Source: an uncultured Candidatus Saccharibacteria bacterium
GTDB lineage: Bacteria; Patescibacteriota; Minisyncoccia; SW-4-49-11
Assembly (NCBI GenBank): GCA_964585065.1
Contig: CAZPCB010000002.1
Span: forward strand, 1,006-65,005
Length of the DNA: 64,000 nucleotides
Direction of reading: 5' to 3'
Below the pieces are notes generated by a model. It was not told the DNA's origin and searched no databases. It was given only the letters and a program-made list of their open reading frames with translations. Both the position numbers and the translations under genes were made by a program. Shown in pieces: positions 2 to 42,787 of the stretch (position 1 is its first letter; every line of letters starts with the position of its first letter).

Positions 2-229
2 TCCCTAACTACAGAACAAAAAGACCTTGCCATACAACATCTCAAACATAATCTAGATACTCATAGTGATTGGATTGTAATCAATACCACTATGGAGACA
101 TTATTCACTTGGAGTAAATCTGACACCACATTAGCTGAATGGCTTATTCCAAGACTTAAAAAATTCCAACAAGATACTCATAAATCAATATCCGGAAGAG
201 CAACTAAATACCTTATAGCCTTATCTTGA
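2..229 (+). CDS. C-terminal fragment of a CDS entering from the left edge (frame 2, stop TGA at 227-229); helical/HEAT-like tail, function unassigned
   Basis: Open frame from position 2 to the stop at 227-229 (75 codons); no start within the window; not in the ORF track because it is truncated. Confidence 0.25.
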   Translation, partial: SLTTEQKDLAIQHLKHNLDTHSDWIVINTTMETLFTWSKSDTTLAEWLIPRLKKFQQDTHKSISGRATKYLIALS

Positions 230-278
230 CTATATCTCTCTTATTCGGTACAATATACAAGTACCTTTCAAATCTAAT

Positions 279-353
279 TCCGCGATAGCTCAGCGGTAGA
301 GCAGTCGGCTGTTAACCGATTGGTCGTAGGTTCGAATCCTACTCGCGGAGCCA
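279..353 (+). tRNA. tRNA-Asn (anticodon GTT)
   Basis: Cloverleaf by eye: acceptor TCCGCGA/TCGCGGA (7 bp), D-arm GCTC..GAGC, anticodon stem GTCGG/CCGAT with loop CTGTTAA (GTT), T-arm GTAGG-TTCGAAT-CCTAC, discriminator G plus encoded CCA. Confidence 0.9.
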
Positions 354-717
354 AACAAGATAAAACCAGGGTAATTCCTGGTTTTATCTTTGTTATTACT
401 TTTGTAGAGAGTAGGATGAGAACCTGGGGAAGGGGTCGGGAAACTACTGTTTCCCGTGGTGGAGGGATTGGAACCGAGGGGTTCCAAGGAGTGAATCCCA
501 TTCACGACTGGTTTGCAATCCTACTCGCGGAGCCAAACAAGATAAAACCAGGGTAATTCCTGGTTTTATCTTTGTTATTACTTTTGTAGAGAGTAGGATG
601 AGAACCTGGGGAAGGGGTCGGGAAACTACTGTTTCCCGTGGTGGAGGGATTGGAACCGAGGGGTTCCAAGGAGTGAATCCCATTCACGACTGGTTTGCAA
701 TCCTACTCGCGGAGCCA
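354..717. repeat. Two perfect tandem copies of a 182-bp unit (354-535, 536-717) immediately 3' of tRNA-Asn. Each unit ends with a copy of the tRNA 3' end (..ggtttgcaatcctactcgcggagcca) and contains four hairpins.
   Basis: The string actcgcggagcca recurs at 341, 523 and 705 (period 182). Hairpins: aaaaccagg/cctggtttt, gggaaac/gtttccc, ttggaacc/ggttccaa, gtgaat/attcac. Outer stem agtaggat/atcctact. Confidence 0.9.
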
Positions 718-788
718 AACTCTAAAAAATAGCTAAATTATAAAAACATGGTACAATATAATAGTATATATAATACTAAAAGAATAAT

Positions 789-1331
789 ATGAAAAAAATT
801 GTTAAAATAATTGCATTAATAATAGGTATTGGTGTTTCTTCAATTTTATTAATAGGATTTATATTTACTATAACTGAAGACCCACTAGAAAAAAGCGTAA
901 AAATTATTGTTAAATCTCTAAATGAAAAAGATAGAGTAACATTTGATCAATATGTAGATCTCAAACAACTATCAGACAATATATCAAGGTCTGCTACAGA
1001 AGAGACTGCCCCAGATAGTTTGTCAGAATATAGCAAGAGACCTGATGTAGATGATGGAGATATAAGCTTTTTAAAAGATTTAATTTCAGAATATACTTCT
1101 GGAAAGTATACCGAGGTAGTTGATCTGTACTTCCAAGGTCAAGGAGAGATTAACGGCCCCCTTAAGTTTCTACTAGATATTGATGGGAAAGCAATTCGTA
1201 CAAAAATTACAAAAACTGAGACGAATGGGACTCTAACATATATACCTCCTTCTGGTGTAAATGATACGGAAAAATCTTATATTTTTGAGAAAAGGGGGGA
1301 ATATTGGGTTTTAGTAAATGCAATTAAGTAG
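789..1331 (+). CDS. hypothetical protein with N-terminal transmembrane anchor
   Basis: 180-aa ORF with a hydrophobic N-terminus (IIALIIGIGVSSILLIGFIF); no recognisable domain. Confidence 0.5.
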   Translation: MKKIVKIIALIIGIGVSSILLIGFIFTITEDPLEKSVKIIVKSLNEKDRVTFDQYVDLKQLSDNISRSATEETAPDSLSEYSKRPDVDDGDISFLKDLISEYTSGKYTEVVDLYFQGQGEINGPLKFLLDIDGKAIRTKITKTETNGTLTYIPPSGVNDTEKSYIFEKRGEYWVLVNAIK

Positions 1332-1353
1332 TTATATTACAACTATAATTTCC

Positions 1354-1393
1354 CCCACTCAAAGGTTCGAACATCCTCTAGCTCCCGGAGCCA
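1354..1393. repeat. pseudo-tRNA 3'-end fragment (ccactcaaaggttcgaacatcctctagctcccggagcca), degenerate copy of the tRNA-Asn T-loop/acceptor 3' half
   Basis: Contains ggttcgaa (T-loop) and ..cggagcca; the same fragment recurs at 3996-4036. Confidence 0.6.
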
Positions 1394-1573
1394 AACAAGA
1401 TAAAGCCAGGGTAATTCCTGGTTTTGTTTTTGTTATTGACTTTGAGAAAGTAGGATGAGAACCTGGGGAAGGGGTCGGGAAACGGAAGTTTCCCGTGGCG
1501 GAAATACCAAAACCGAGGGGTTTTGGGGAGTGAATCCCATTCACGACTGGTTTGCAATCCTACTCGCGGAGCA
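1394..1573. repeat. third, diverged copy (~90% identity) of the 182-bp tRNA-linked unit, followed by the same downstream flank (aactccctttaaatagc) as the array at 718
   Basis: Alignment by eye to 354-535. Hairpin 2 changed from ttggaacc/ggttccaa to ccaaaacc/ggttttgg (four compensatory pair changes). Hairpin 1 loop changed tact to ggaa. Confidence 0.85.
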
Positions 1574-1611
1574 AACTCCCTTTAAATAGCTTATTTTAGC
1601 TATTTTTTGGT

Positions 1612-2460
1612 TTATTTTTTCAACCACTTATTAAAGAATTCTCTTTGTAATGTATTACTCTCTTTTATAACTTGACTCAATCCATGATCAGCTTCATTGA
1701 AATAATGAAAATCAACACTATTATGACCCGCTTCTATAAGTTTATTGAAAAATTTTACTGCAATACTAGGAATTACTTGGACATCTTGCCCTCCTTGAAT
1801 AATTTGTAATGGAATAGTTTTATCTATCTCTTCTACATTCTGATAGGGAGATTTAGCTTTTATTAGCTCCTCTGAATTTGTATCATACATATCTGAATGC
1901 CATTCTTTCAAACCCGGTCTACTTATATATTCGCTTGCAATATCTAACAGGGAGCTTTGTATACTAACACATCGTATCCAATTTAGAGATTTACGTAATA
2001 TGTTCAAACTCATTAAACCACCTCTACTCATTCCCCTCATTCCAATTCTCGTAGAGTCTACATAGTCCAAGCTATCTATTACTGGTTTTAGATTAATAAT
2101 ATCCTCTAAATCCATACCTGAAAGCTCATCTTTTCCCTCACTACCCCCATTACCAGAGTATTGTGACGCAATTACCACATAGCCCCAAGAGGCAATAATA
2201 CATATAACTCCGATAAGCTTTTTACCAGTTATAACACCAAACTCTTTTGAGCCACCTCTATTGTAGATAATACATGGATATACACCATCTGCTTTTGGTT
2301 TTACAATATATCCTTTGATTTGTCGTCCATCTGAATCATAAGTAAGGTCATATAAATCCAACATGTCTAATGTATTCCAAGTCAATTTTTGCGTATCTAA
2401 AGGGAGAGCCTGCAATGTCTCTTGAACGATAGAATTCCAATCTATAGGTAATAACTTCAT
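1612..2460 (-). CDS. alpha/beta hydrolase, S9 prolyl-oligopeptidase/dienelactone-hydrolase-like catalytic domain
   Basis: 282 aa; nucleophile elbow GMSRGG, C-terminal ..GGQDVQV..ADHG arrangement typical of S9/DLH-fold serine hydrolases. Confidence 0.6.
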   Translation of the reverse strand: MKLLPIDWNSIVQETLQALPLDTQKLTWNTLDMLDLYDLTYDSDGRQIKGYIVKPKADGVYPCIIYNRGGSKEFGVITGKKLIGVICIIASWGYVVIASQYSGNGGSEGKDELSGMDLEDIINLKPVIDSLDYVDSTRIGMRGMSRGGLMSLNILRKSLNWIRCVSIQSSLLDIASEYISRPGLKEWHSDMYDTNSEELIKAKSPYQNVEEIDKTIPLQIIQGGQDVQVIPSIAVKFFNKLIEAGHNSVDFHYFNEADHGLSQVIKESNTLQREFFNKWLKK

Positions 2461-2467
2461 GAGATTA

Positions 2468-3685
2468 TTATATATACTTTTGAGCTTCTATCCACTCCTC
2501 CTCGGATAAATTTCCTTTAATCACAAGAGATTTAATATGAGATGATAGGAATTGTTTTGCTAGAGATATAACTTCTTCATAAGATATTGCTCTGACTTGC
2601 TCATAGAAATCTTCTAAGGTAAGATGTATTCCGTCATCATAACGCAACTGAAATCCATAAAAAGACTGTATGTCATATATGCTACCATCTTGAGTTTTTT
2701 CATCACTTATATAAATAGTTTTATATCTTTCTATATCTTGTGGCGTTATCAAAGACTCCAGATTATTAATAGAGTTATAGATAATTTGCAATGACTCTAA
2801 TAGCTTCTCTTTATCTATTTTATATTGAATCTGTATGTCTATACTATTAGGATGTACATTTGAATATGAATCAATCCAATATACTAAACCATTCTTAATT
2901 CGTAGTTCTTGTAATAATACTGAAGTCCAAAAATTAGCTAAAGTTGTTCGTAGAATTGATACAGCCGTGCTAGTTCTAAGGTTTATCGTATTGGGGATAG
3001 CATACCCAAATAAAACTTCTAATGTGTTATCTGATGTTGGAAGCAATCTATTAGTAGATTTTACACTTTCTAAAGCTCCAAGAGATAAAAATGGCTCTAT
3101 AGAATTTACTTCTGAATCTAATATAATCTCATTTATATCTGGAGTAATAATTAATAAATGTGCTTGGTTCTTTGTATAATGCTTTTCTGCATAATAAATA
3201 TACTCCTCATATGTAATGCTATCTAAATCCCCAAATACATTATACGCTAAAGATGTGTTAGAGTACAAAGTATCAGTAAAAATTTTATAGATATTATTTT
3301 GATCATTAGCTTTTTCTTGAGCAATAATATTTTTTTCCTTTTCAAAAGCCTCTCGAGATACTGGTTCTTGATCAAAGTTGTTTAATAATAGTTGTAAAGA
3401 AGGTAAAAGATTATCTAACTCTTGGACATGATAGTAATAGGTTAAATATGCTGTTGTATAAGCATTAGCTCTAATTCCATACTCTTCTAAAGTTTTGGCC
3501 TTAGTATACTCATCATCTCCTCCTGCCCAAAGATGTTCAAAAAAATGAGATAAGCCTTGAGCATTAACATCATCAAGTGCATATCCTCGAGCAAACCAAA
3601 GAGATACAGAAGACATAATTTGTTGCCTATCTTCTATTACTGTAGTCTTAATCCCTTGATATATCCCATGTTTAATAGTGGGCAT
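2468..3685 (-). CDS. M16 family (pitrilysin/insulinase-like) zinc peptidase
   Basis: 405 aa; inverted zinc-binding motif HFFEH (HxxEH) near the N-terminus followed by a downstream Glu region; sits 7 bp from the hydrolase gene, likely an operon. Confidence 0.75.
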   Translation of the reverse strand: MPTIKHGIYQGIKTTVIEDRQQIMSSVSLWFARGYALDDVNAQGLSHFFEHLWAGGDDEYTKAKTLEEYGIRANAYTTAYLTYYYHVQELDNLLPSLQLLLNNFDQEPVSREAFEKEKNIIAQEKANDQNNIYKIFTDTLYSNTSLAYNVFGDLDSITYEEYIYYAEKHYTKNQAHLLIITPDINEIILDSEVNSIEPFLSLGALESVKSTNRLLPTSDNTLEVLFGYAIPNTINLRTSTAVSILRTTLANFWTSVLLQELRIKNGLVYWIDSYSNVHPNSIDIQIQYKIDKEKLLESLQIIYNSINNLESLITPQDIERYKTIYISDEKTQDGSIYDIQSFYGFQLRYDDGIHLTLEDFYEQVRAISYEEVISLAKQFLSSHIKSLVIKGNLSEEEWIEAQKYI

Positions 3686-3716
3686 AATAATGTTGTTTAA
3701 ACTATACTCAGTATAT

Positions 3717-3751
3717 ATAAAATAATGAGGGAAGGCAACTTGTACCTTCCC
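3717..3751 (-). terminator. intrinsic terminator-like hairpin (minus orientation GGGAAGG-N9-CCTTCCC followed by tcattatttt) between a GC-rich leader/small ORF and the M16 peptidase start
   Basis: Plus-strand gggaaggcaacttgtaccttccc at 3729-3751, with a T-run on the minus strand. Confidence 0.45.
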
Positions 3752-3788
3752 TGTTTGGAACTTGGAGCCTAGTAGCTACCGTTGAGGA

Positions 3789-3869
3789 CTACTTGCTGGG
3801 ACGAGGGGTGGGACGGCCAGAGCCATTCCCCCAACCTTGCGAACCGCCACCACCATTGCTATTGGCCAT
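3789..3869 (-). CDS. possible 26-aa Gly-rich small peptide (MANSNGGGGSQGWGNGSGRPTPRPSK) in a GC-rich patch; could instead be a structured leader RNA
   Basis: ATG at 3869, TAG at 3789-3791, GGAG 11 nt upstream; codon usage is GC-rich and unlike its surroundings; has its own promoter-like element and a downstream hairpin. Confidence 0.2.
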   Translation of the reverse strand: MANSNGGGGSQGWGNGSGRPTPRPSK

Positions 3870-3922
3870 TGAAATGAATCTCCGAAACGAAGGGGTAGAG
3901 AGACATTACTGTCTCAAAACCA

Positions 3923-3961
3923 AATCTATCACAAATATTAATATTTGTCAATAACTGTCAA
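3923..3961 (-). promoter_or_regulatory. sigma70-like promoter on the minus strand: TTGACAgttaTTGACA, then 17 bp, then TAGATT
   Basis: Reverse complement of 3923-3961; -35 at 3946-3951, -10 at 3923-3928; nearly the same architecture recurs at 63443-63481. Confidence 0.45.
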
Positions 3962-3995
3962 TTATATTAATTCTTCCTGAAAACCTCCTAGATTA

Positions 3996-4052
3996 CCCAC
4001 TCAAAGGTTCGAACATCGTCTAGCTCGCGGAGCCAACTCTCTTTAAATAGCT
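3996..4052. repeat. solo copy of the pseudo-tRNA-3' fragment joined directly to the downstream-flank motif (..cgcggagcca|actctctttaaatagc), i.e. an empty-site/attR-like junction
   Basis: Same fragment and flank as at 1354-1393/1574-1590, without the 182-bp unit between them. Confidence 0.6.
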
Positions 4053-6321: not shown

Positions 6322-6488
6322 GCTATTATAGTAAGCTATATATATACTTTACTACATATATCTATCCATTTCAATTTGTAATCACTTCTCTCTTTTCAAA
6401 TTTATATACTTGTTAGCCATATAATACTTTAGTAGAGAACGTGTATTCTACTATACTAAAATAAAAGTGGATTAAGCACTACTGTCTA

Positions 6489-6517
6489 CCAGTCAAACAT
6501 CGTCTAGCTCCCGAATC
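6489..6517. repeat. short fragment of the pseudo-tRNA-3' repeat (aaacatcgtctagctcccgaatcc)
   Basis: Similarity by eye to 4012-4036. Confidence 0.35.
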
Positions 6518-6573
6518 CTAGATGATGTGGGCAACGTATTAATACAAATCTAATTACCAAATTATTATATTTA

Positions 6574-7302: not shown

Positions 7303-7430
7303 ATTATTTTTATGATTCTATTGTAATTATACACATTTATATATATTTTATCTACTTATAAAATTTATCTCCTCTCAAAACCATAGTGAGCCCCCTCTAG
7401 GGTAATGAGTGCTCTCTAACACTCATTTTT

Positions 7431-7460
7431 ATTATTGATTTTGAGAGAGTAGGATGAGAA
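7431..7460. repeat. fragment of the 182-bp unit (ttattgattttgagagagtaggatgagaa, matching 1436-1465)
   Basis: Similarity by eye; lies just left of the GC-rich island. Confidence 0.4.
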
Positions 7461-7541: not shown

Positions 7542-8450
7542 TCAGTGATTTGCCTTTGCTAATAAAGCCTGTTTACTAGGAATCCGTAGCTGATAAGCCC
7601 AACCAAGACGCTCCAGAAATCGTATGAAGTAGTAGGTAGGGTCTGGTAGTGTTACTATCTTGTCCCCCCGTACTGTAAAACCCTGTCTTGCTGAATATTC
7701 GAAGCCATGATGTAGATTATGCCAACCCTCGCCAAGAGTGATAATAGCCACCCAAGTGTTGTTACGACTACCATCGCGGGTAATGAATGGCTGATCACCT
7801 ACTAAGTGGGCCACAGAGTTTACCGTAGCAACACCGTGGAACAAAAGAGTAGTGCTCAGACAAAATGCAACCAACCATTCTATACCACCGATATGCCAGG
7901 AGATCCAAGCTAATGCCAAAGCTGGCACTATATGTAGTCTATCGATCAAACGTAATACAGGATCAGACTCTATATCAGCTGGTAGGGTACTAGGATGAAA
8001 TCCAGGTGAAAGTATCCAACCTATCTGAGCATGCCAAAAACCATGCAGTCGATTTCTATACATCAGAGGGCTATGAGGATCATCCAAGGTATCAACATGA
8101 CGATGATGGGCCTTGTGATGAGCCTTCCACCAACTTGGTCCCATCTGGCCTGCTGAGGCTGTTATTATGGATCCGATCCACCATACTAGTCTAGGAGCCT
8201 TATAGCTACCATGAGTTATCAAGCGATGGTAAATGGCAGTAATTCCAAGCATCCGTACTAGGTATAATACTGTAGCCCAGAGTATGGCGCATAAGCCAAG
8301 TCTCTCCCGAAACAACAGTAGACAGCCTAGATGTGCAACCAGTATGAATACCGGTCCCATACCATGCAAAAACCGAAGGAGATGGGATTGGGAAATAGAA
8401 TGGGAAGATACTGCTGTGGAACTGATAGATTTTGAATTAAACATCAGCAT
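7542..8450 (-). CDS. membrane acyl-lipid/acyl-CoA delta-9 fatty acid desaturase (DesC-like)
   Basis: Three His boxes: HRLITH, HHKAHHRH..DPHSP, GEGWHNLHHGFEYSARQG. GC-rich codons. The ORF-track start (8513) is a TTG; the ATG at 8450 is more likely. Confidence 0.8.
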   Translation of the reverse strand: MLMFNSKSISSTAVSSHSISQSHLLRFLHGMGPVFILVAHLGCLLLFRERLGLCAILWATVLYLVRMLGITAIYHRLITHGSYKAPRLVWWIGSIITASAGQMGPSWWKAHHKAHHRHVDTLDDPHSPLMYRNRLHGFWHAQIGWILSPGFHPSTLPADIESDPVLRLIDRLHIVPALALAWISWHIGGIEWLVAFCLSTTLLFHGVATVNSVAHLVGDQPFITRDGSRNNTWVAIITLGEGWHNLHHGFEYSARQGFTVRGDKIVTLPDPTYYFIRFLERLGWAYQLRIPSKQALLAKANH

Positions 8451-8612
8451 ATTCCAGCCCAAACTGGACCATAAGGACATAAACACCTTAGCATACTTAT
8501 TATGTTTAATCAATATACAGAAATATATCTATTCTAGGATATGACACTTCTATCCTTCAAAGAAAAATCCCTCCAGCTGAGCCAAAGGGATTGAGTTAGA
8601 TTGAATTGTAGA

Positions 8613-9314
8613 TCAGATGAGAGCTGAGGCAGCCAGCTTGGCGATTTCACGGGTGGAGAATCCGATAGAGACCAAAGACTCCTGATACGCGATAAGGAAA
8701 TCCTCAATGAGGTCTTCCCTGTCCATTTGGAGGACGGCCGCGTCACCGGCTACCTGATCAAGCATAATGCGTACCAAGGGGAGATTGTCCCGATTGGCCT
8801 GCTCGAGCTCCTCACGACTGGCTTCAAAATTGGCTTTGAGCCATTCTTGGCCATAATTGAGATGAGTGTATTCATCCTTGACTACTCCCTCGGTGATTTT
8901 CCGCGCAAACGGATCGGCAACAGGTATATAGATGTGATAAGCTGCAATTGCAAAGGCCTCGATGAGAATCGCTTGAATCAGCAAACAGGTGACTACCTTC
9001 CTCTCTGTAAAAGCTTTTTGAAAATTGCCATGTAGGGGCAAGAAAAACTTTTTAGCAAAAGGTATATCTGCTTGCACTCCCAAGTTGCGGGCACAGGCAG
9101 TGAAACCCTTCATATGCCTCAGCTCCATACCCGCAAGGCGGGTAAGCTCTTCAGCCTGATCGGGTAGCAAGCTACCAAGGGAAATGTAATTGTCATAAGC
9201 TTCTTGCTCACCTTCAATCACAATGGCATTAATCCTACTATAGGCATCTTTGTAAATGGCGCTGGTGAAGTCAGGAAGAGAGATTTGTTCTTGAGAAAGA
9301 GCAGTTGTGTTCAT
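8613..9314 (-). CDS. aldehyde-deformylating oxygenase (cyanobacterial-type alkane-forming ADO, ferritin-like di-iron)
   Basis: The strings [71 protein letters not shown].. are close to the Synechococcus orf1593 family as recalled. ATG at 9314; the track start at 9338 is a TTG. Confidence 0.8.
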
Positions 9315-9446
9315 AATGGGTATTGGATAAAAATCCAAGAGGTCATTTTTATTATACGCCGCTTATTTTGCTTTGTATATATACACGAAATCATTGACAA
9401 TACCCCCTCAACACCCTATTATATACGTACTTTCTTTCATATCCTC

Positions 9447-9752
9447 ATGAAGCCAATTACAAGGAGTTCCAGAATTTCACTGATTGTGGGAACATTGATT
9501 AGAAAAAGATATCGTTATTATCATATAGAGAAAAAAGAGGCCATATTGCGTGGAGTAATATATGCTATACCTGGTCAAGTTCTTCCTCACTGCAATGGAG
9601 ATTGGACTGAATTAGAGCTGGGTTTATATGAATATTTTAGAACAAAGGGACAGCCTGGATCATTTAATGAGGAAGAGATGCAGACTCTTACTCGAGAGTA
9701 TTTCTCATCATTGCAAGCAACTATAGAATATATCACCCCCAAGGAAGACTAA
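9447..9752 (+). CDS. possible small hypothetical protein in the divergent ADO/CFA-synthase intergenic region
   Basis: ATG-initiated portion (101 aa) of track ORF 9204-9752; the upstream part overlaps ADO and is likely spurious. Confidence 0.15.
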   Translation: MKPITRSSRISLIVGTLIRKRYRYYHIEKKEAILRGVIYAIPGQVLPHCNGDWTELELGLYEYFRTKGQPGSFNEEEMQTLTREYFSSLQATIEYITPKED

Positions 9753-9865
9753 TCTCTTCCTTTTTTCTTTGCATAATTTGCTATAAATCCTCTTGGATAC
9801 TTGACTTTTACCTCATTTCCTGTTAGTGTTTCAAAGCATACTCTTCGGGGTATCGTTCTTTCACA

Positions 9866-11071
9866 ATGGAGCATTTAACCATGTCTGCTCAGACACGTGT
9901 TGAGAGATTTTTTGATAAAGCAGGAGTTGACCAAACCTTTATTACTGCAACTTCTAAGTTTTATAAAGCTTTCGATGGACGGTTCACCCTTGGAATGGGT
10001 GAATCTTATATCAATGGCAGTTTTGCGATTGGTGATGAGAATCTCATCGAAATGTTTACCAGAATTTTTGGAAGCTTAAATGGATTCTTGCGGGGAGATG
10101 ATTATGCTGGGTTTAGCTCACTGGGATTTTATCGGCTGTATCAGCTGATGAATGCCACCCAAATGATCAATTGGCAACACATCCGTGCAAAGTATTTTGC
10201 GGATATTCACTATGAGCTACCTCATCAGCTTTTTGTCCAGATGCTTGGCCCCTCTCGGGCTTATAGCTCTGGTTATTGGCCAGAGGGGGTGGAGACTCTA
10301 GACCAGGCTCAGGATGCCAAGTTTGACTTGATTATCCGCAAGCTTGGTCTCAAAGCCGGTGAAACCGTACTCGACTTCGGTTGTGGGGCGGGTAGTTTTG
10401 GCAGATATGCAGGATCTCGCGGTATTCGAGTCGTAGGACTCAATATCTGCCAGGAACAACTCGCTTATGCTCGAGCTCACAATGACCAAGAAGTTCCTGC
10501 AATTTACCTTGATTTTAATTTGGTAACACAAAGTGTTGCTGAGTTACAATCAATTCTCAAACCCTATGGGATTGAGAATTTCGATGCTGTTACCTTTATT
10601 GGCTCGATTGAGCATGTGGGTTGGAAGAACTATGCTTCTCTCTATCGCAAGCTCTATCAGCTTCTGAATCCTACGGGACGGATTCTCTGCCATGTTATTG
10701 GATCCTATATTCCATTACCGGTGGCCGATCCCTATATCATGACCAAGATTTTCCCTGACTCGCAGCTTGCTGTGATCAGTGAAATGACCAAGGCAACTGA
10801 GAAGACTGGCTTCCAGCTAATGGATTGGCACAACCTGGAAACAGGTGTTCACTCCTATGCCAAGACACTGAGAGCTTGGCTTAACAACTTCCAAACCAAC
10901 TGGGAAACTATCAAGCCCTCTATGCCTCACAAAGATAAGGAAGCCTTTTACCGAGAATGGGTATTCTACCTAATGCTCTGTATTGGAGCCTTCGAGTCTG
11001 ACTTTGTCAATGTTGGGCACTATGTGTTCCGCAAGACTGCAGACACTCACCCATTCACTCCAGTCCGCTAA
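9866..11071 (+). CDS. cyclopropane-fatty-acyl-phospholipid synthase family SAM-dependent methyltransferase
   Basis: 401 aa; SAM motif VLDFGCGAGSF; CMAS-like length and C-terminal region; GC-rich. Confidence 0.7.
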   Translation: MEHLTMSAQTRVERFFDKAGVDQTFITATSKFYKAFDGRFTLGMGESYINGSFAIGDENLIEMFTRIFGSLNGFLRGDDYAGFSSLGFYRLYQLMNATQMINWQHIRAKYFADIHYELPHQLFVQMLGPSRAYSSGYWPEGVETLDQAQDAKFDLIIRKLGLKAGETVLDFGCGAGSFGRYAGSRGIRVVGLNICQEQLAYARAHNDQEVPAIYLDFNLVTQSVAELQSILKPYGIENFDAVTFIGSIEHVGWKNYASLYRKLYQLLNPTGRILCHVIGSYIPLPVADPYIMTKIFPDSQLAVISEMTKATEKTGFQLMDWHNLETGVHSYAKTLRAWLNNFQTNWETIKPSMPHKDKEAFYREWVFYLMLCIGAFESDFVNVGHYVFRKTADTHPFTPVR

Positions 11072-42641: not shown

Positions 42642-42787
42642 CAACAAATTCCTCCAGAAGTACTGAGAGATCATCCTGTACTTCGCCACCCTAACCCAAC
42701 TCCCCTTACACAAGCAACAAACTCCTCCAGAAGTGCTGAGAAATCATCCTGTACTTCACCACCCTAACCCAACTCCCCTTACAGATT
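42642..42787. repeat. two tandem copies of a 73-bp direct repeat (about 93% identical), GC-richer than the surroundings, upstream of 42867
   Basis: caacaaattcctccagaagtactgagagatcatcctgtacttcgccaccctaacccaactccccttaca versus the next 73 bp. Confidence 0.85.

What the first reader, a model, noticed from the sequence alone, without database searches (positions are those of the whole stretch)
279..717. tRNA-Asn followed by two tandem 182-bp structured repeats that each regenerate the tRNA 3' end
Immediately after the CCA of tRNA-Asn come two perfect 182-bp copies. Each starts with a terminator-like hairpin (aaaaccagg/cctggtttt). It then forms a cloverleaf-like multibranch: an outer stem agtaggat/atcctact encloses three hairpins. 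Each unit ends in ..aatcctactcgcggagcca, a copy of the tRNA T-arm/acceptor 3' strand plus CCA. These are not CRISPR repeats: there are no spacers. The pattern fits iterative site-specific insertion of a tiny tRNA-3'-targeting element, or a tRNA-linked structured RNA family (tRNA-like 3' end, possibly processed by RNase P/Z). I do not recognise it as a described element.
Basis: seen in the sequence. Interest (0 to 1): 0.7.

Follow-up and report, generated by a model that had tools for sequence, protein, structure and literature searches.

The report
tRNA-linked repeat array after tRNA-Asn
The two perfect 182-bp units after tRNA-Asn are real and are the Patescibacteria counterpart of E. coli's little-studied "tRNA-linked repeats": structured RNA elements that each end in a copy of the neighbouring tRNA's 3' end, here from a widespread family that Rfam does not hold.

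Summary
tRNA-Asn(GTT) lies at 279-353 and is followed by two 100%-identical 182-bp units. A third diverged unit lies at 1394-1575 and a truncated one at about 7420-7460.

Each unit has three parts:
- a terminator-like hairpin;
- a ~127-nt multibranched RNA;
- a copy of the last 19 nt of the tRNA, CCA included.

It is not an orphan. The core 19-mer recurs in Patescibacteria genomes and about 50 metagenome loci. It usually sits 27-73 nt downstream of a tRNA of many different identities. Each copy ends in the 3' end of its own upstream tRNA. In many loci the 5' strand is a decayed reverse complement of that same 3' end. Hairpin H2 covaries strongly, and G-U pairs put the structure on the tRNA strand.

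No Rfam 15 family reaches threshold. The only suggestive hit is E. coli RtT, at 18.8 bits against a cut-off of 45.

This architecture has been described: E. coli "tRNA-linked repeats" (TLRs; tyrT 178-bp repeats/RttR; rrA/B/F). Their function is still unknown.

Verdict: a new sequence family of a known kind. The perfect pair is most likely an in-situ duplication.

The parts
226..254 (+). Promoter-like site TTGACT-17-TACAAT upstream of tRNA-Asn; presumed promoter of the whole tRNA + repeat transcript
   Evidence: Consensus scan, 10/12 matches. It is the only promoter-like site upstream of the array; none lies between the hairpins and the RNA modules.
279..353 (+). tRNA-Asn(GTT) with encoded CCA. 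Its 3' part X1 (335-353 exact; about 328-353 including the T-loop) is the repeated sequence
   Evidence: ARAGORN; Rfam tRNA 73.5 bits.
354..535 (+). Unit 1. Hairpin 354-394 (core 357-390). X' 409-424 GAGTAGGATGAGAACC. Purine bulge GGGGAAGGG 426-434. H1 437-456. H2 468-487. H3 491-505. GAC 506-508. Degenerate T-loop copy 510-516. X2 517-535.
   Evidence: Sequence, TRF, fold, family alignments.
536..717 (+). Unit 2, 100% identical to unit 1 (hairpin core 539-572; X' 591-606; core 608-690; X 699-717). Followed by AAC and a degraded remnant of the downstream terminator.
   Evidence: TRF 100% matches; the repeat finder family D1.
1354..1394 (+). Xb1: a variant tRNA-Asn 3'-end-like repeat (CCCACTCAAAGGTTCGAACATCCTCTAGCTCCCGGAGCCAA) that closes the cassette carrying ORF 789-1331
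   Evidence: the repeat finder family D3; pattern search, + strand only. The same motif precedes units in relatives L004, L005 and L054.
1394..1575 (+). Unit 3, diverged. It has a GNRA H1 loop (GGAA) and the other H2 allele (CCAAAACC/GGTTTTGG, four compensatory pairs relative to units 1/2). It ends AATCCTACTCGCGGAGCA.
1584..1608 (+). Intrinsic terminator AAATAGCT-tatttt-AGCTATTTTTT just after unit 3, conserved after the element in relatives
   Evidence: Sequence. My own terminator scan finds such a site in 19/47 loci against 28/490 random windows.
3996..4036 (+). Xb2: second copy of the variant tRNA 3'-end-like repeat, followed by the same AACTCTCTTTAAATAGCTT flank. It closes the cassette holding the S9 and M16 peptidase genes and a 26-aa ORF.
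   Evidence: the repeat finder families D3 and D5.
7420..7460 (+). Truncated fourth copy: hairpin plus TTATTATTGATTTTGAGAGAGTAGGATGAGAA, broken off after X'
   Evidence: the repeat finder family D10; sequence.

Best explanation
What it is. The units are tRNA-linked repeats (TLR-type elements) of a Patescibacteria genome. Each unit encodes a structured RNA of about 127 nt that lies behind a first, leaky terminator hairpin in the tRNA-Asn operon.

Structure of the RNA:
- A four-way junction holds a conserved purine bulge (GGGGAAGGG).
- H1 is an invariant hairpin, GNRA-capped in every other family member.
- H2 is a covarying hairpin.
- H3 is a variable hairpin.
- Helix P1 closes the junction. Its 3' strand (X) copies the last ~19-24 nt of the upstream tRNA, CCA included. 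Its 5' strand (X') is a decayed reverse complement of that sequence.

How it most likely works (inferred).
1. Transcription from the tRNA promoter at 226-254 reads through the hairpin.
2. The cut that makes the tRNA 3' end creates the 5' end of the RNA.
3. The copied tRNA 3' end recruits the same 3'-processing enzymes, so discrete ~180-nt RNAs with tRNA-like CCA ends are released.

This matches what has been mapped in E. coli. The 171-nt RttR runs from 8 nt after tyrV to the CCA of the first repeat. RrB lies between rrnB terminators T1 and T2.

Function. The cellular role of the released RNA is unknown, as it is for E. coli TLRs. The deep conservation of the core argues for a bound partner.

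Origin of the pair (inferred). The two perfect copies arose in place, by unequal recombination or slippage between the 22-bp direct repeats (tRNA 3' end + AAC).
For: Shown by tools:
- Anatomy and perfect duplication.
- Family breadth. The core 22-mer hits 5 GTDB genomes; 4 are named Patescibacteria/CPR. The 19-mer hits 71 metagenome loci, 58 core copies pass the hairpin test, and 46 of those are non-redundant with enough upstream sequence.
- tRNA linkage. 22 of those 46 have a same-strand tRNA within 200 nt upstream; the linked tRNAs span 14 amino-acid identities.
- Tailoring of X. 14 of 20 copies share at least 10 exact nt with the last 16 nt of their own tRNA gene. None of 370 non-cognate comparisons does (alignments).
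- Two copies on one contig follow two different tRNAs, and each carries its own tRNA's 3' end: L043 (Asp and Arg) and L072 (Val and Gly).
- H2 covariation. 98.6% and 98.1% of cells are paired, with 28 and 20 double-change cells; 0/500 shuffles reach this, and slid controls give at most 65% paired.
- Strand. The G-U pairs in H1 and H2 fit the tRNA strand only.
- Terminator-like sites within 90 nt downstream occur in 19/47 loci against 28/490 random windows.
- There is no promoter-like site between hairpin and RNA.
- Units 1 and 2 share a loop (TACT) seen in no other member.

E. coli comparison:
- RttR ends exactly at the CCA of repeat 1, and each repeat carries X' (GGGGAAGGAT) and X.
- The Rfam RtT model aligns end to end with the window units and shares GGAUGAGAACCU.
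- The TLR hallmark and the read-through and processing model come from PMC8144298.
Against: - There are no expression or end-mapping data for this organism.
- The hairpin between tRNA and RNA looks like a competent intrinsic terminator, so read-through may be rare.
- In the window subfamily the acceptor part of P1 has decayed (only GAGTAGGAT/ATCCTACTC pairs). Units 1 and 2 have also lost the GNRA loop, so these particular copies may be decaying.
- The sequence link to E. coli TLRs is weak. RtT scores 18.8 bits against a gathering score of 45. A profile of the Patescibacteria core finds nothing at the E. coli tyrT locus.
- About half of the non-redundant copies have no detectable tRNA within 200 nt upstream. 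Some of these are secondary copies in arrays, and some sit behind intron-containing tRNAs that ARAGORN misses.
- The model does not explain how a copy acquires both X and X' of a new tRNA.
Confidence: 0.6

Rival explanations
1. Miniature integrative element. Each unit, and each Xb-bounded gene cassette, was inserted by a T-loop-specific tyrosine recombinase acting in trans. The tRNA 3' end copies are attL/attR cores, as in tRNA-targeting genomic islands and integrase-less, cis-mobilizable derivatives of integrative elements (the latter from my own knowledge).
For: - Direct repeats run from the T-loop (position ~53-60) to the tRNA 3' end, and sometimes 25-33 nt beyond it (L076, second copy in L043). 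That is typical of att identity blocks.
- The region 279-4036 is a series of cassettes, all ending in same-orientation tRNA-Asn 3'-end-like repeats.
- Relatives differ in cassette content at these boundaries: L002 has one unit directly followed by the M16 gene.
- Several copies per contig sit at different tRNAs.
Against: - No integrase or recombinase was found among the 30 window ORFs scanned, nor among recurrent neighbours in about 45 loci, which are housekeeping-type genes (annotated by eye).
- A 182-bp circle is implausibly small for a recombination substrate.
- Integration into a new tRNA species would create a chimeric tRNA on the left. The left copies are intact.
- It does not explain X' or the deeply conserved, covarying core.
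- Units 1 and 2 share a private mutation.
Confidence: 0.12
2. Cis-acting switch on tRNA maturation. X' can pair either with the tRNA's own 3' strand (X1), extending the hairpin into a ~35-bp duplex that misfolds the pre-tRNA, or with the decoy copy X2, forming P1. The conserved core would sense a ligand or protein and set the balance, like a riboswitch aptamer closed by P1.
For: - In most tRNA-linked loci the whole segment from the tRNA T-loop to the start of the core is one long inverted repeat with the hairpin at its centre: X1 - hairpin - X' - core - X2. This is the 1-2-3 layout of attenuators.
- P1 closes a conserved multi-helix junction with invariant purine-rich joining strands.
- In the window, X' matches X1 better (2x2 GA/GA internal loop) than X2 (3x4 loop).
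Against: - No ligand, no conserved gene context, and no expression data.
- The linked tRNA identity varies freely, and many copies lack a nearby tRNA or have a decayed X'.
- The minimum-energy fold of 279-535 keeps the T-arm and anticodon arm and forms P1.
- The inverted repeat may be only a footprint of how the element formed.
Confidence: 0.1
3. Structural by-product with no RNA function. The X1 - X' - X2 layout would be a tandem inversion duplication made by snap-back template switching at the terminator and T-arm palindromes (a mechanism known from Salmonella; my own knowledge). The units would persist neutrally.
For: - The arrangement is direct-inverted-direct, with short loops at the symmetry centre.
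- X' and the acceptor part of P1 decay with time.
- Tandem and partial X copies occur elsewhere (L041, L049, L067).
Against: - A 19-nt core string is identical across distant lineages.
- H2 covaries, and H1 is invariant apart from a few G-U changes, in 38 sequences.
- A pure inversion duplication leaves no room for a conserved ~100-nt core at the second junction.
- The mechanism may explain how copies form, but not why the core is kept.
Confidence: 0.08
4. The second perfect unit is an assembly artefact: a repeat loop traversed once too often. The real locus would have one unit, as in relatives L002 and L066.
For: - The identity is 100% over 182 bp.
- Close relatives L002 and L066 carry a single unit after tRNA-Asn.
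- The source is probably a metagenome assembly.
Against: - Assemblers usually collapse tandem repeats rather than expand them.
- E. coli carries 3.14 such units, and L067 shows a tandem restart, so arrays are a normal state of this kind of element.
- This rival affects copy number only, not the nature of the element.
Confidence: 0.07
5. Retroelement-like RNA. X' would be a primer-binding site for the 3' end of the neighbouring tRNA, as in LTR retroelements, and X a copied primer.
For: - X is 18-19 nt and starts at T-loop position 58-59, the same length and boundary as retroviral primer-binding sites (boundary from my own knowledge).
- At its best, X' is a perfect complement of the tRNA's last ~22 nt (L049, L009, L010).
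Against: - No reverse transcriptase was seen among recurrent neighbours.
- tRNA genes without an encoded CCA keep lacking it next to the element (L049, L038, L062), which argues against a passage through mature tRNA.
- Identity sometimes extends into the DNA flank beyond the tRNA.
Confidence: 0.03

Closest known systems
E. coli tRNA-linked repeats (TLRs; Egan & Landy 1978; Rudd 1999; reviewed in Stenum et al. 2021, PMC8144298)
   Same: - They lie in stable-RNA operons immediately downstream of a tRNA or rRNA gene.
- There are 1-5 copies per locus, often in tandem.
- Units are about 100-180 bp.
- The last 18-19 bp are identical to the 3' end of the upstream gene.
- There are several loci per genome, each copy tailored to its own upstream gene.
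- No function is known.
(window; family)
   Different: - Phylum: Patescibacteria rather than Enterobacteria.
- The conserved core is different (GGGGAAGGG bulge, H1 GGGAAAC-GNRA-GUUUCCC, H2 ..AACC-loop-GGUU..) and does not align with the E. coli core (GUUGC-NNN-GCAAC-GNCCCGRAGGG).
- Here the 5' strand often includes a full reverse complement of the tRNA 3' end, with a palindromic hairpin at the symmetry centre.
RtT RNA / RttR (Rfam RF00391), the tyrT-tyrV 178-bp repeats
   Same: - A tRNA is followed by 2-3 tandem ~180-bp units ending in the last 19 nt of the tRNA including CCA.
- The annotated 171-nt RNA ends exactly at that CCA.
- X' is present (GGGGAAGGAT pairs with ATCCTTCCCC).
- Both carry the same GGAU-GA-GAACC variant of the T-loop complement.
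- Both carry a GGAG-(GCGAAGC)-GACGA module just before X; a 15-nt string is identical between E. coli and locus L012.
   Different: - The score is 18.8 bits against a gathering score of 45.
- The match rests on the ends, and partly on the shared T-arm of tRNA-Tyr and tRNA-Asn.
- The middle parts are unrelated.
- There is no terminator-like hairpin between tRNA and unit in E. coli.
- Other Patescibacteria subfamilies give no RtT hit at E<=5.
rrA/rrB/rrF sRNAs between the dual terminators of E. coli rrnA/B/D
   Same: - The layout is the same: stable RNA gene, first terminator, structured RNA ending in a copy of the upstream gene's 3' end, second terminator (window).
- The model is read-through transcription with ends made by the stable-RNA processing enzymes.
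   Different: - The upstream gene is 5S rRNA.
- Hfq and CsrA binding were shown in vitro. No such partner can be tested here.
- RNase E is the proposed enzyme there. Which enzymes act in Patescibacteria is unknown.
att repeats of tRNA-targeting integrative elements / genomic islands
   Same: Same-orientation partial copies of a tRNA 3' end (T-loop to CCA) bound variable gene cassettes next to the tRNA.
   Different: - No integrase was found.
- The smallest 'cassette' is a 182-bp non-coding unit with a conserved RNA structure and an inverted copy of the target.

Membership tests
tRNA-linked repeats (TLR class, as defined for E. coli) | Located in a tRNA or rRNA operon, immediately downstream of the stable-RNA gene, on the same strand | tested here: met
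   Unit 1 starts at the base after the CCA of tRNA-Asn. In the family, 22 of 46 non-redundant copies have a same-strand tRNA within 200 nt upstream.
tRNA-linked repeats (TLR class, as defined for E. coli) | 18-19 bp at the 3' end identical to the 3' end of the upstream tRNA/rRNA gene | tested here: met
   The 19-nt AATCCTACTCGCGGAGCCA closes units 1 and 2; unit 3 has 18/19 with one C missing. In the family, 14 of 20 cognate pairs share at least 10 exact nt with the last 16 nt of the tRNA gene, against 0 of 370 non-cognate pairs.
tRNA-linked repeats (TLR class, as defined for E. coli) | One to five copies per locus, several loci per genome | tested here: met
   The window has 2 tandem + 1 + 1 truncated copies. 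Contigs L043, L072, L054, L055 and L005 carry two copies each.
tRNA-linked repeats (TLR class, as defined for E. coli) | Sequence similarity to the E. coli TLR consensus | tested here: inconclusive
   There is end-to-end alignment to RtT but only 18.8 bits. Short modules are shared (GGAUGAGAACCU; GGAGCGAAGCGACGA). The Patescibacteria core profile gives no hit at the tyrT locus.
tRNA-linked repeats (TLR class, as defined for E. coli) | Transcribed with the stable RNA and processed to a discrete RNA | not testable with these tools
   Indirect support only: no promoter of its own, a downstream terminator, and strand-specific G-U pairs.
Rfam RF00391 (RtT) | Score at or above the curated gathering score (45 bits) | tested here: not met
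   18.8 bits, E = 3.4 over 4 kb and 0.14 over 161 nt.
Any other Rfam 15 family (tmRNA, RNase P RNA, SRP RNA, 6S, riboswitches, ribozymes, Y RNA-like) | Covariance-model match | tested here: not met
   The gathering scan of the window finds only the tRNA. E-value scans of the window region and of 18 related loci give nothing at the element except weak ylbH, RtT and sroE hits. A gathering scan of 20 further loci finds only tRNAs. L073 has a normal tmRNA elsewhere.
tRNA-targeting integrative element (island with att repeats) | Integrase/recombinase gene within or next to the repeat-bounded segment | tested here: not met
   Pfam on 30 window ORFs gives none. Recurrent neighbours in about 45 loci look like housekeeping genes (annotated by eye).
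tRNA-targeting integrative element (island with att repeats) | Same-orientation partial tRNA 3' copies flanking inserted DNA | tested here: met
   X at 335, 517, 699 and 1556; Xb at 1364 and 4006; all on the + strand.
CRISPR array | Short repeats separated by unique spacers of similar length | tested here: not met
   The units abut head to tail with no spacers.

The most novel reading that the evidence does not exclude
TLR-type elements would be an ancient, widespread class of stable-RNA-operon trailer RNAs rather than an enterobacterial oddity.

- The Patescibacteria family would be a functional RNA whose conserved four-way-junction core binds a cellular partner.
- Its X' strand would toggle between the tRNA's own 3' strand and the decoy copy X2, coupling maturation or decay of the linked tRNA to that partner.
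- The way each copy acquires both the sense and the antisense copy of a new tRNA's 3' end would reveal an undescribed copy mechanism targeted at tRNA T-arms.
Probability: 0.15. Interest if true: 0.85.

Novelty: new variant of a known kind. Interest (0 to 1): 0.58.

Why it matters
E. coli TLRs have been known since 1978 and still have no function. In the searchable library they appear in only two papers.

This finding adds three things:
- The same architecture exists in Patescibacteria, a very distant phylum of reduced genomes.
- It comes as a large family with a deeply conserved core, one hairpin of which is supported by covariation.
- Each copy is tailored to its own tRNA.

That turns a single-organism curiosity into a comparative problem. 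Hundreds of independent copies could show how the tRNA 3' end, and its inverse complement, are captured. They could also show which positions of the core are constrained, and therefore what the RNA binds.

There is a practical point too. These elements explain many 'partial tRNA' hits and tandem repeats next to tRNA genes in genomes of the candidate phyla radiation (CPR). They should not be read as integration scars by default.

Tried and rejected
1. Prochlorococcus genomic island or tycheposon remnant. Low GC and an aldehyde-decarbonylase gene suggested it. Rejected because every named genome holding the core string is Patescibacteria/CPR, and the tycheposon preprint describes no such unit.
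2. tmRNA, RNase P RNA, SRP RNA, 6S, a riboswitch or a small ribozyme. No Rfam match. ARAGORN finds no tmRNA. L073 has a normal tmRNA elsewhere.
3. Phage origin. The 19-mer has 0 hits in IMG/VR.
4. Protein-coding explanation. ORFs of 30-79 aa cross the units on both strands, but relatives differ by a 1-nt indel and by compensatory stem changes.
5. tRNA 'minihelix' with an insertion in the T-loop. Rejected because X' carries the reverse complement of asymmetric T-loops (AATCGAAC for TTCGATT in L049, L020 and L028), not the loop itself.
6. Conserved protein partner in the neighbourhood. All-against-all BLAST of 751 neighbouring ORFs shows only local synteny.
7. Automatic detection of P1 and H2 by simple scripts and regular expressions was noisy or failed. 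MAFFT misaligned H2 because loop lengths differ, so RNAalifold saw only H1. I therefore split H2 into two ungapped alignments.
8. The 1991 RtT paper is not held. Its claim of a stringent-response role was later withdrawn, according to PMC8144298.
Full report
**1. Observation**

- tRNA-Asn(GTT) lies at 279-353 with an encoded CCA (ARAGORN; Rfam tRNA 73.5 bits).
- From 335 to 720, Tandem Repeats Finder reports a period of 182, 2.1 copies, 100% matches and no indels.
- Each unit begins with a 15-bp A/U-rich hairpin followed by a T-rich tail (357-390 and 539-572).
- Each unit then folds into a multibranched structure closed by GAGTAGGAT/ATCCTACTC. The whole unit has z = -6.6 against dinucleotide shuffles, and the RNA part alone z = -4.7.
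- Each unit ends in AATCCTACTCGCGGAGCCA, the last 19 nt of the tRNA. This 3' end occurs four times in the window, all on the + strand (335, 517, 699, 1556), against 0.04 expected.

- a diverged third unit at 1394-1575;
- a copy truncated after its 5' strand at about 7420-7460.

**2. The unit belongs to a large family**

No Rfam 15 family reaches its threshold anywhere in the window except the tRNA.

Exact-match searches with strings from the core gave these results:
- The 22-mer CCTGGGGAAGGGGTCGGGAAAC matches five species-representative genomes. Four are named Patescibacteria, Paceibacterota, Saccharibacteria or Parcubacteria, and one is unnamed.
- The 19-mer GGGGAAGGGGTCGGGAAAC matches 71 metagenome loci. 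58 core copies pass a hairpin test; the rest are chance hits in G+C-rich coding DNA.
- The same 19-mer matches no viral contig.

Locus L002 shares the tRNA-Asn, one unit and the adjacent M16 peptidase gene with the window. I therefore take the window to be a Patescibacteria chromosome. It carries ordinary housekeeping genes: alanine racemase, a release factor, FtsX, YchF, UvrB, DnaE and HolA.

A profile of the core (nhmmer) found additional copies that lack the exact 19-mer. Several contigs carry two copies.

**3. Anatomy of the family** (alignments; folds)

Read 5' to 3', a member contains:
1. X', the 5' strand of closing helix P1, typically ending ...TTCGAAC.
2. An invariant purine bulge, GGGGAAGGG.
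3. GUC.
4. H1: (C)GGGAAAC - GNRA - GUUUCCC(G).
5. The joining strand G-UGG-AGGAA.
6. An optional inserted hairpin (H1b).
7. H2: NNN(A/G)AACC - 3-5 nt loop - GGUU(U/C)NNN.
8. (A/G)GAG.
9. H3, a variable hairpin that is often the mini-hairpin GCGAAGC.
10. GAC.
11. X, the 3' strand of P1.

Evidence for the pairings and the strand:
- H2 is supported by covariation. In two ungapped alignments (16 and 13 distinct sequences), 98.6% and 98.1% of cells form pairs. 28 and 20 cells have changes on both sides. None of 500 shuffles reaches the observed covariation score, and structures slid by one column pair at only 57-65%.
- Inside the window itself, units 1/2 and unit 3 differ by four compensatory pairs in H2: TTGGAACC/GGTTCCAA against CCAAAACC/GGTTTTGG.
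- H1 never varies except for six G-U changes. These, and the G-U pairs in H2, would be A-C mismatches on the other strand. The structured strand is therefore the tRNA strand.

**4. The link to tRNAs is specific and tailored**

- Of 46 non-redundant copies with at least 200 nt of upstream sequence, 22 have a same-strand tRNA within 200 nt. The core usually starts 27-73 nt after the tRNA end.
- The linked tRNAs span 14 amino-acid identities: Asn, Thr, Met, Val, Glu, Gln, Phe, Ser, Leu, Asp, Gly, Ile, Arg and Lys.
- The 3' strand X copies the 3' end of that particular tRNA. In 14 of 20 loci it shares at least 10 exact nt with the last 16 nt of the cognate tRNA gene, a region beyond the universally conserved T-loop. 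None of 370 non-cognate comparisons does (alignments).
- The copy begins in the T-loop (positions ~53-60, usually with one or two changes at 56-58). It normally ends at or near the tRNA 3' end, but runs 25-33 nt further into the flank in L076 and in the second copy of L043.
- On single contigs, two copies follow two different tRNAs and each carries its own tRNA's end: L043 (Asp and Arg-TCT) and L072 (Val and Gly).
- The 5' strand X' is a reverse complement of the same tRNA segment, T-loop included. It is perfect or nearly so in L049, L009, L010 and L025, and decayed elsewhere.
- Asymmetric T-loops are informative here: AATCGAAC stands opposite TTCGATT. X' is therefore an inverted copy, not the 5' half of a tRNA minihelix.
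- In most tRNA-linked loci the whole stretch from the tRNA T-loop to the core is one long inverted repeat centred on the 'terminator' hairpin. The layout is X1 (in the tRNA) - hairpin - X' - core - X2.
- No protein gene is consistently nearby, and no integrase was seen.

**5. What is known**

The only suggestive Rfam hit is RtT (RF00391). It aligns end to end with 395-535 and 577-717, but at 18.8 bits against a gathering score of 45.

I read the E. coli K-12 tyrT-tyrV locus:
- tyrV is followed by 3.14 repeats of 178 bp.
- Each repeat ends in AATCCTTCCCCCACCACCA, the last 19 nt of tRNA-Tyr.
- Each repeat carries GGGGAAGGAT, the complement of ATCCTTCCCC, near its 5' side.
- The annotated 171-nt sRNA RttR runs from 8 nt after the tRNA to exactly the CCA of the first repeat.

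Stenum et al. 2021 (PMC8144298) place these in a class called tRNA-linked repeats (TLRs):
- There are 22 copies at ten loci in E. coli K-12 tRNA and rRNA operons, one to five per locus.
- The hallmark is that 18-19 bp at their 3' end are identical to the 3' end of the gene immediately upstream.
- No function is known. The early stringent-response claim for RtT was withdrawn.
- Their 5' end is at the RNase E site 3 nt after 5S rRNA. Their 3' end lies 3 nt after the repeat.
- The authors propose that the repeat exists to recruit the same processing enzyme.

I read that layout in rrnB as well.

The window element meets every architectural criterion of a TLR. It fails membership of the E. coli sequence family:
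- The cores do not align, and the Patescibacteria core profile finds nothing at tyrT.
- Some end modules are shared. Both carry the same GGAU-GA-GAACC variant of the T-loop complement. A 15-nt string, GGAGCGAAGCGACGA, lies just before X in both E. coli and locus L012.
- Whether this reflects common descent or convergence is open.

**6. How it most likely works** (inferred, by analogy and from anatomy)

- The only promoter-like site is upstream of the tRNA (226-254). None lies between hairpin and RNA.
- Unit 3, and the element in relatives, is followed by a strong intrinsic terminator. Such sites occur within 90 nt downstream in 19/47 loci against 28/490 random windows.
- The RNA 5' end would come from the cut that matures the tRNA 3' end. 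The copied X...CCA would make the 3' end a substrate for the same tRNA 3'-processing enzymes.
- This would release ~180-nt RNAs (or ~130-nt RNAs, if the hairpin is removed).
- The released RNA's job is unknown. Conservation of the purine bulge, H1 and the inner four pairs of H2 suggests a bound partner.

The two perfect copies most likely arose in place, by unequal recombination or slippage between the 22-bp direct repeats. They share an H1 loop (TACT) that replaces the GNRA loop of every other member sampled. The same observation hints that these two copies may be functionally relaxed.

**7. What remains unexplained**

The main gap is how a copy at a new tRNA obtains both the sense and the antisense copy of that tRNA's 3' end.
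- Integrase-mediated insertion explains the direct repeats and the Xb-bounded gene cassettes at 789-1394 and 1612-4036. It does not explain X', the tiny size, the intact left-hand tRNAs or the absence of integrases.
- A snap-back (tandem inversion duplication) mechanism explains the direct-inverted-direct layout, but not the conserved core at the second junction.
- A tRNA-primed retroelement is disfavoured, because CCA-less tRNA genes stay CCA-less next to the element and identity can extend into the flank.
- The 1-2-3 layout also allows a regulatory reading, in which X' chooses between the tRNA and the decoy. I keep this as the novel case.

TLR-like layouts with other cores also exist in these contigs (L062 tRNA-Met; L049/L059 tRNA-Arg). 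Of 58 non-E. coli tRNAs in the held loci, 20 have their last 12-16 nt repeated within 400 nt downstream. The sample is biased, because the loci were selected for the core.

**8. Verdict**

The feature is real and non-random. It is a member of a large, apparently unannotated Patescibacteria RNA/element family. In kind it is the same as the E. coli tRNA-linked repeats, so it is a new variant of a known but poorly understood kind, not a categorically new element.

Interest is moderate to fairly high. The comparative data could finally make the origin and function of TLRs tractable. Nothing here shows function, and the perfect duplication itself is ordinary repeat dynamics.

Noticed in passing
L003:5748-6046 (+) and L005:3583-3821 (-): The tRNA-Asn genes of close relatives carry a group I intron in the anticodon loop (Rfam 86.5 and 73.3 bits), so ARAGORN misses them. 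The window's tRNA-Asn has no intron. This agrees with the recent report of group I introns in Patescibacteria tRNA-Asn/Asp genes (PMC13011429).
   Followed up: partly
window 1354-1394, 3996-4036, degenerate 6480-6520: A second kind of tRNA-Asn 3'-end-like repeat ('Xb', CCCACTCAAAGGTTCGAACATCSTCTAGCTCSCGGAGCCA), on the + strand only. At 4036 it is followed by the flank AACTCTCTTTAAATAGCTT, versions of which also follow units 2 and 3. It bounds gene cassettes next to the tRNA, and relatives (L004, L005, L054) have it directly before a unit. Its origin is not worked out.
   Followed up: partly
window 1612-3960 (- strand): A 26-aa glycine-rich ORF (3789-3869, MANSNGGGGSQGWGNGSGRPTPRPSK) has a good promoter-like TTGACA...TAGATT upstream. 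It sits directly upstream of an M16 (insulinase-type) peptidase gene (2468-3685) and an S9 prolyl-oligopeptidase-type gene (1612-2460). L004 has the same arrangement. It looks like a small precursor-peptide plus protease cassette.
   Followed up: no
window 7542-11071: A cyanobacterial-type aldehyde decarbonylase (Pfam Ald_deCOase, E = 5e-117, 8613-9338), a fatty-acid desaturase and a cyclopropane-fatty-acid synthase sit in a stretch of 39-46% G+C, in a ~33% G+C genome. This is unusual cargo for a Patescibacteria genome and is probably horizontally acquired. It lies just past the truncated repeat copy.
   Followed up: no
L025 / L039, between tRNA-Lys(TTT) and the element (~390 nt): A small ORF that looks GIY-YIG-like by eye (MYYAYLLKLSNGDFYAGSTANIQRRLSSHQKG...) is inserted between the tRNA and X'. 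In these loci the repeat-bounded segment therefore contains a nuclease-like gene plus the RNA. Not scanned against Pfam.
   Followed up: no
L005, around 3300-3490 (- strand): A second unit in L005 carries a ~100-nt nested insertion between GGGGU and H1. The insertion itself resembles the H1b-H2 part of the core (..GGAAGGCAG-hairpin-..GTCGGAAACCGTAGGTGTCCGAG..).
   Followed up: no
L041:5200-5345 (- strand): Just after tRNA-Arg(TCG) lies a partial second copy of the tRNA (D-arm 3' part onwards). It has a 36-nt insertion in the T-loop and an encoded CCA. It is either a pseudo-tRNA or a T-loop-interrupted tRNA.
   Followed up: no
L062:3354-3545; L049:10782-11040: TLR-like elements with other, only loosely similar cores: tRNA, hairpin, partial inverted copy, structured stretch containing GAGTGACGACGA / GAGCGACGGCGA, then a copy of the tRNA 3' end. 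In L049 three partial X copies follow in series.
   Followed up: partly
window 42642-42783: Two 69-nt direct repeats (94% identical, 73 nt apart) rich in CCN/ACN. Not examined.
   Followed up: no
L001:2810-3235: In this more distant member, tRNA-Arg(CCG) is embedded between complementary flanks (TTCTAACATACC ... GGTATGTTAG). The 14-nt anticodon stem-loop GGTTTCCGGAACCT is repeated directly in front of the core. The upstream 115 nt are also highly structured.
   Followed up: no
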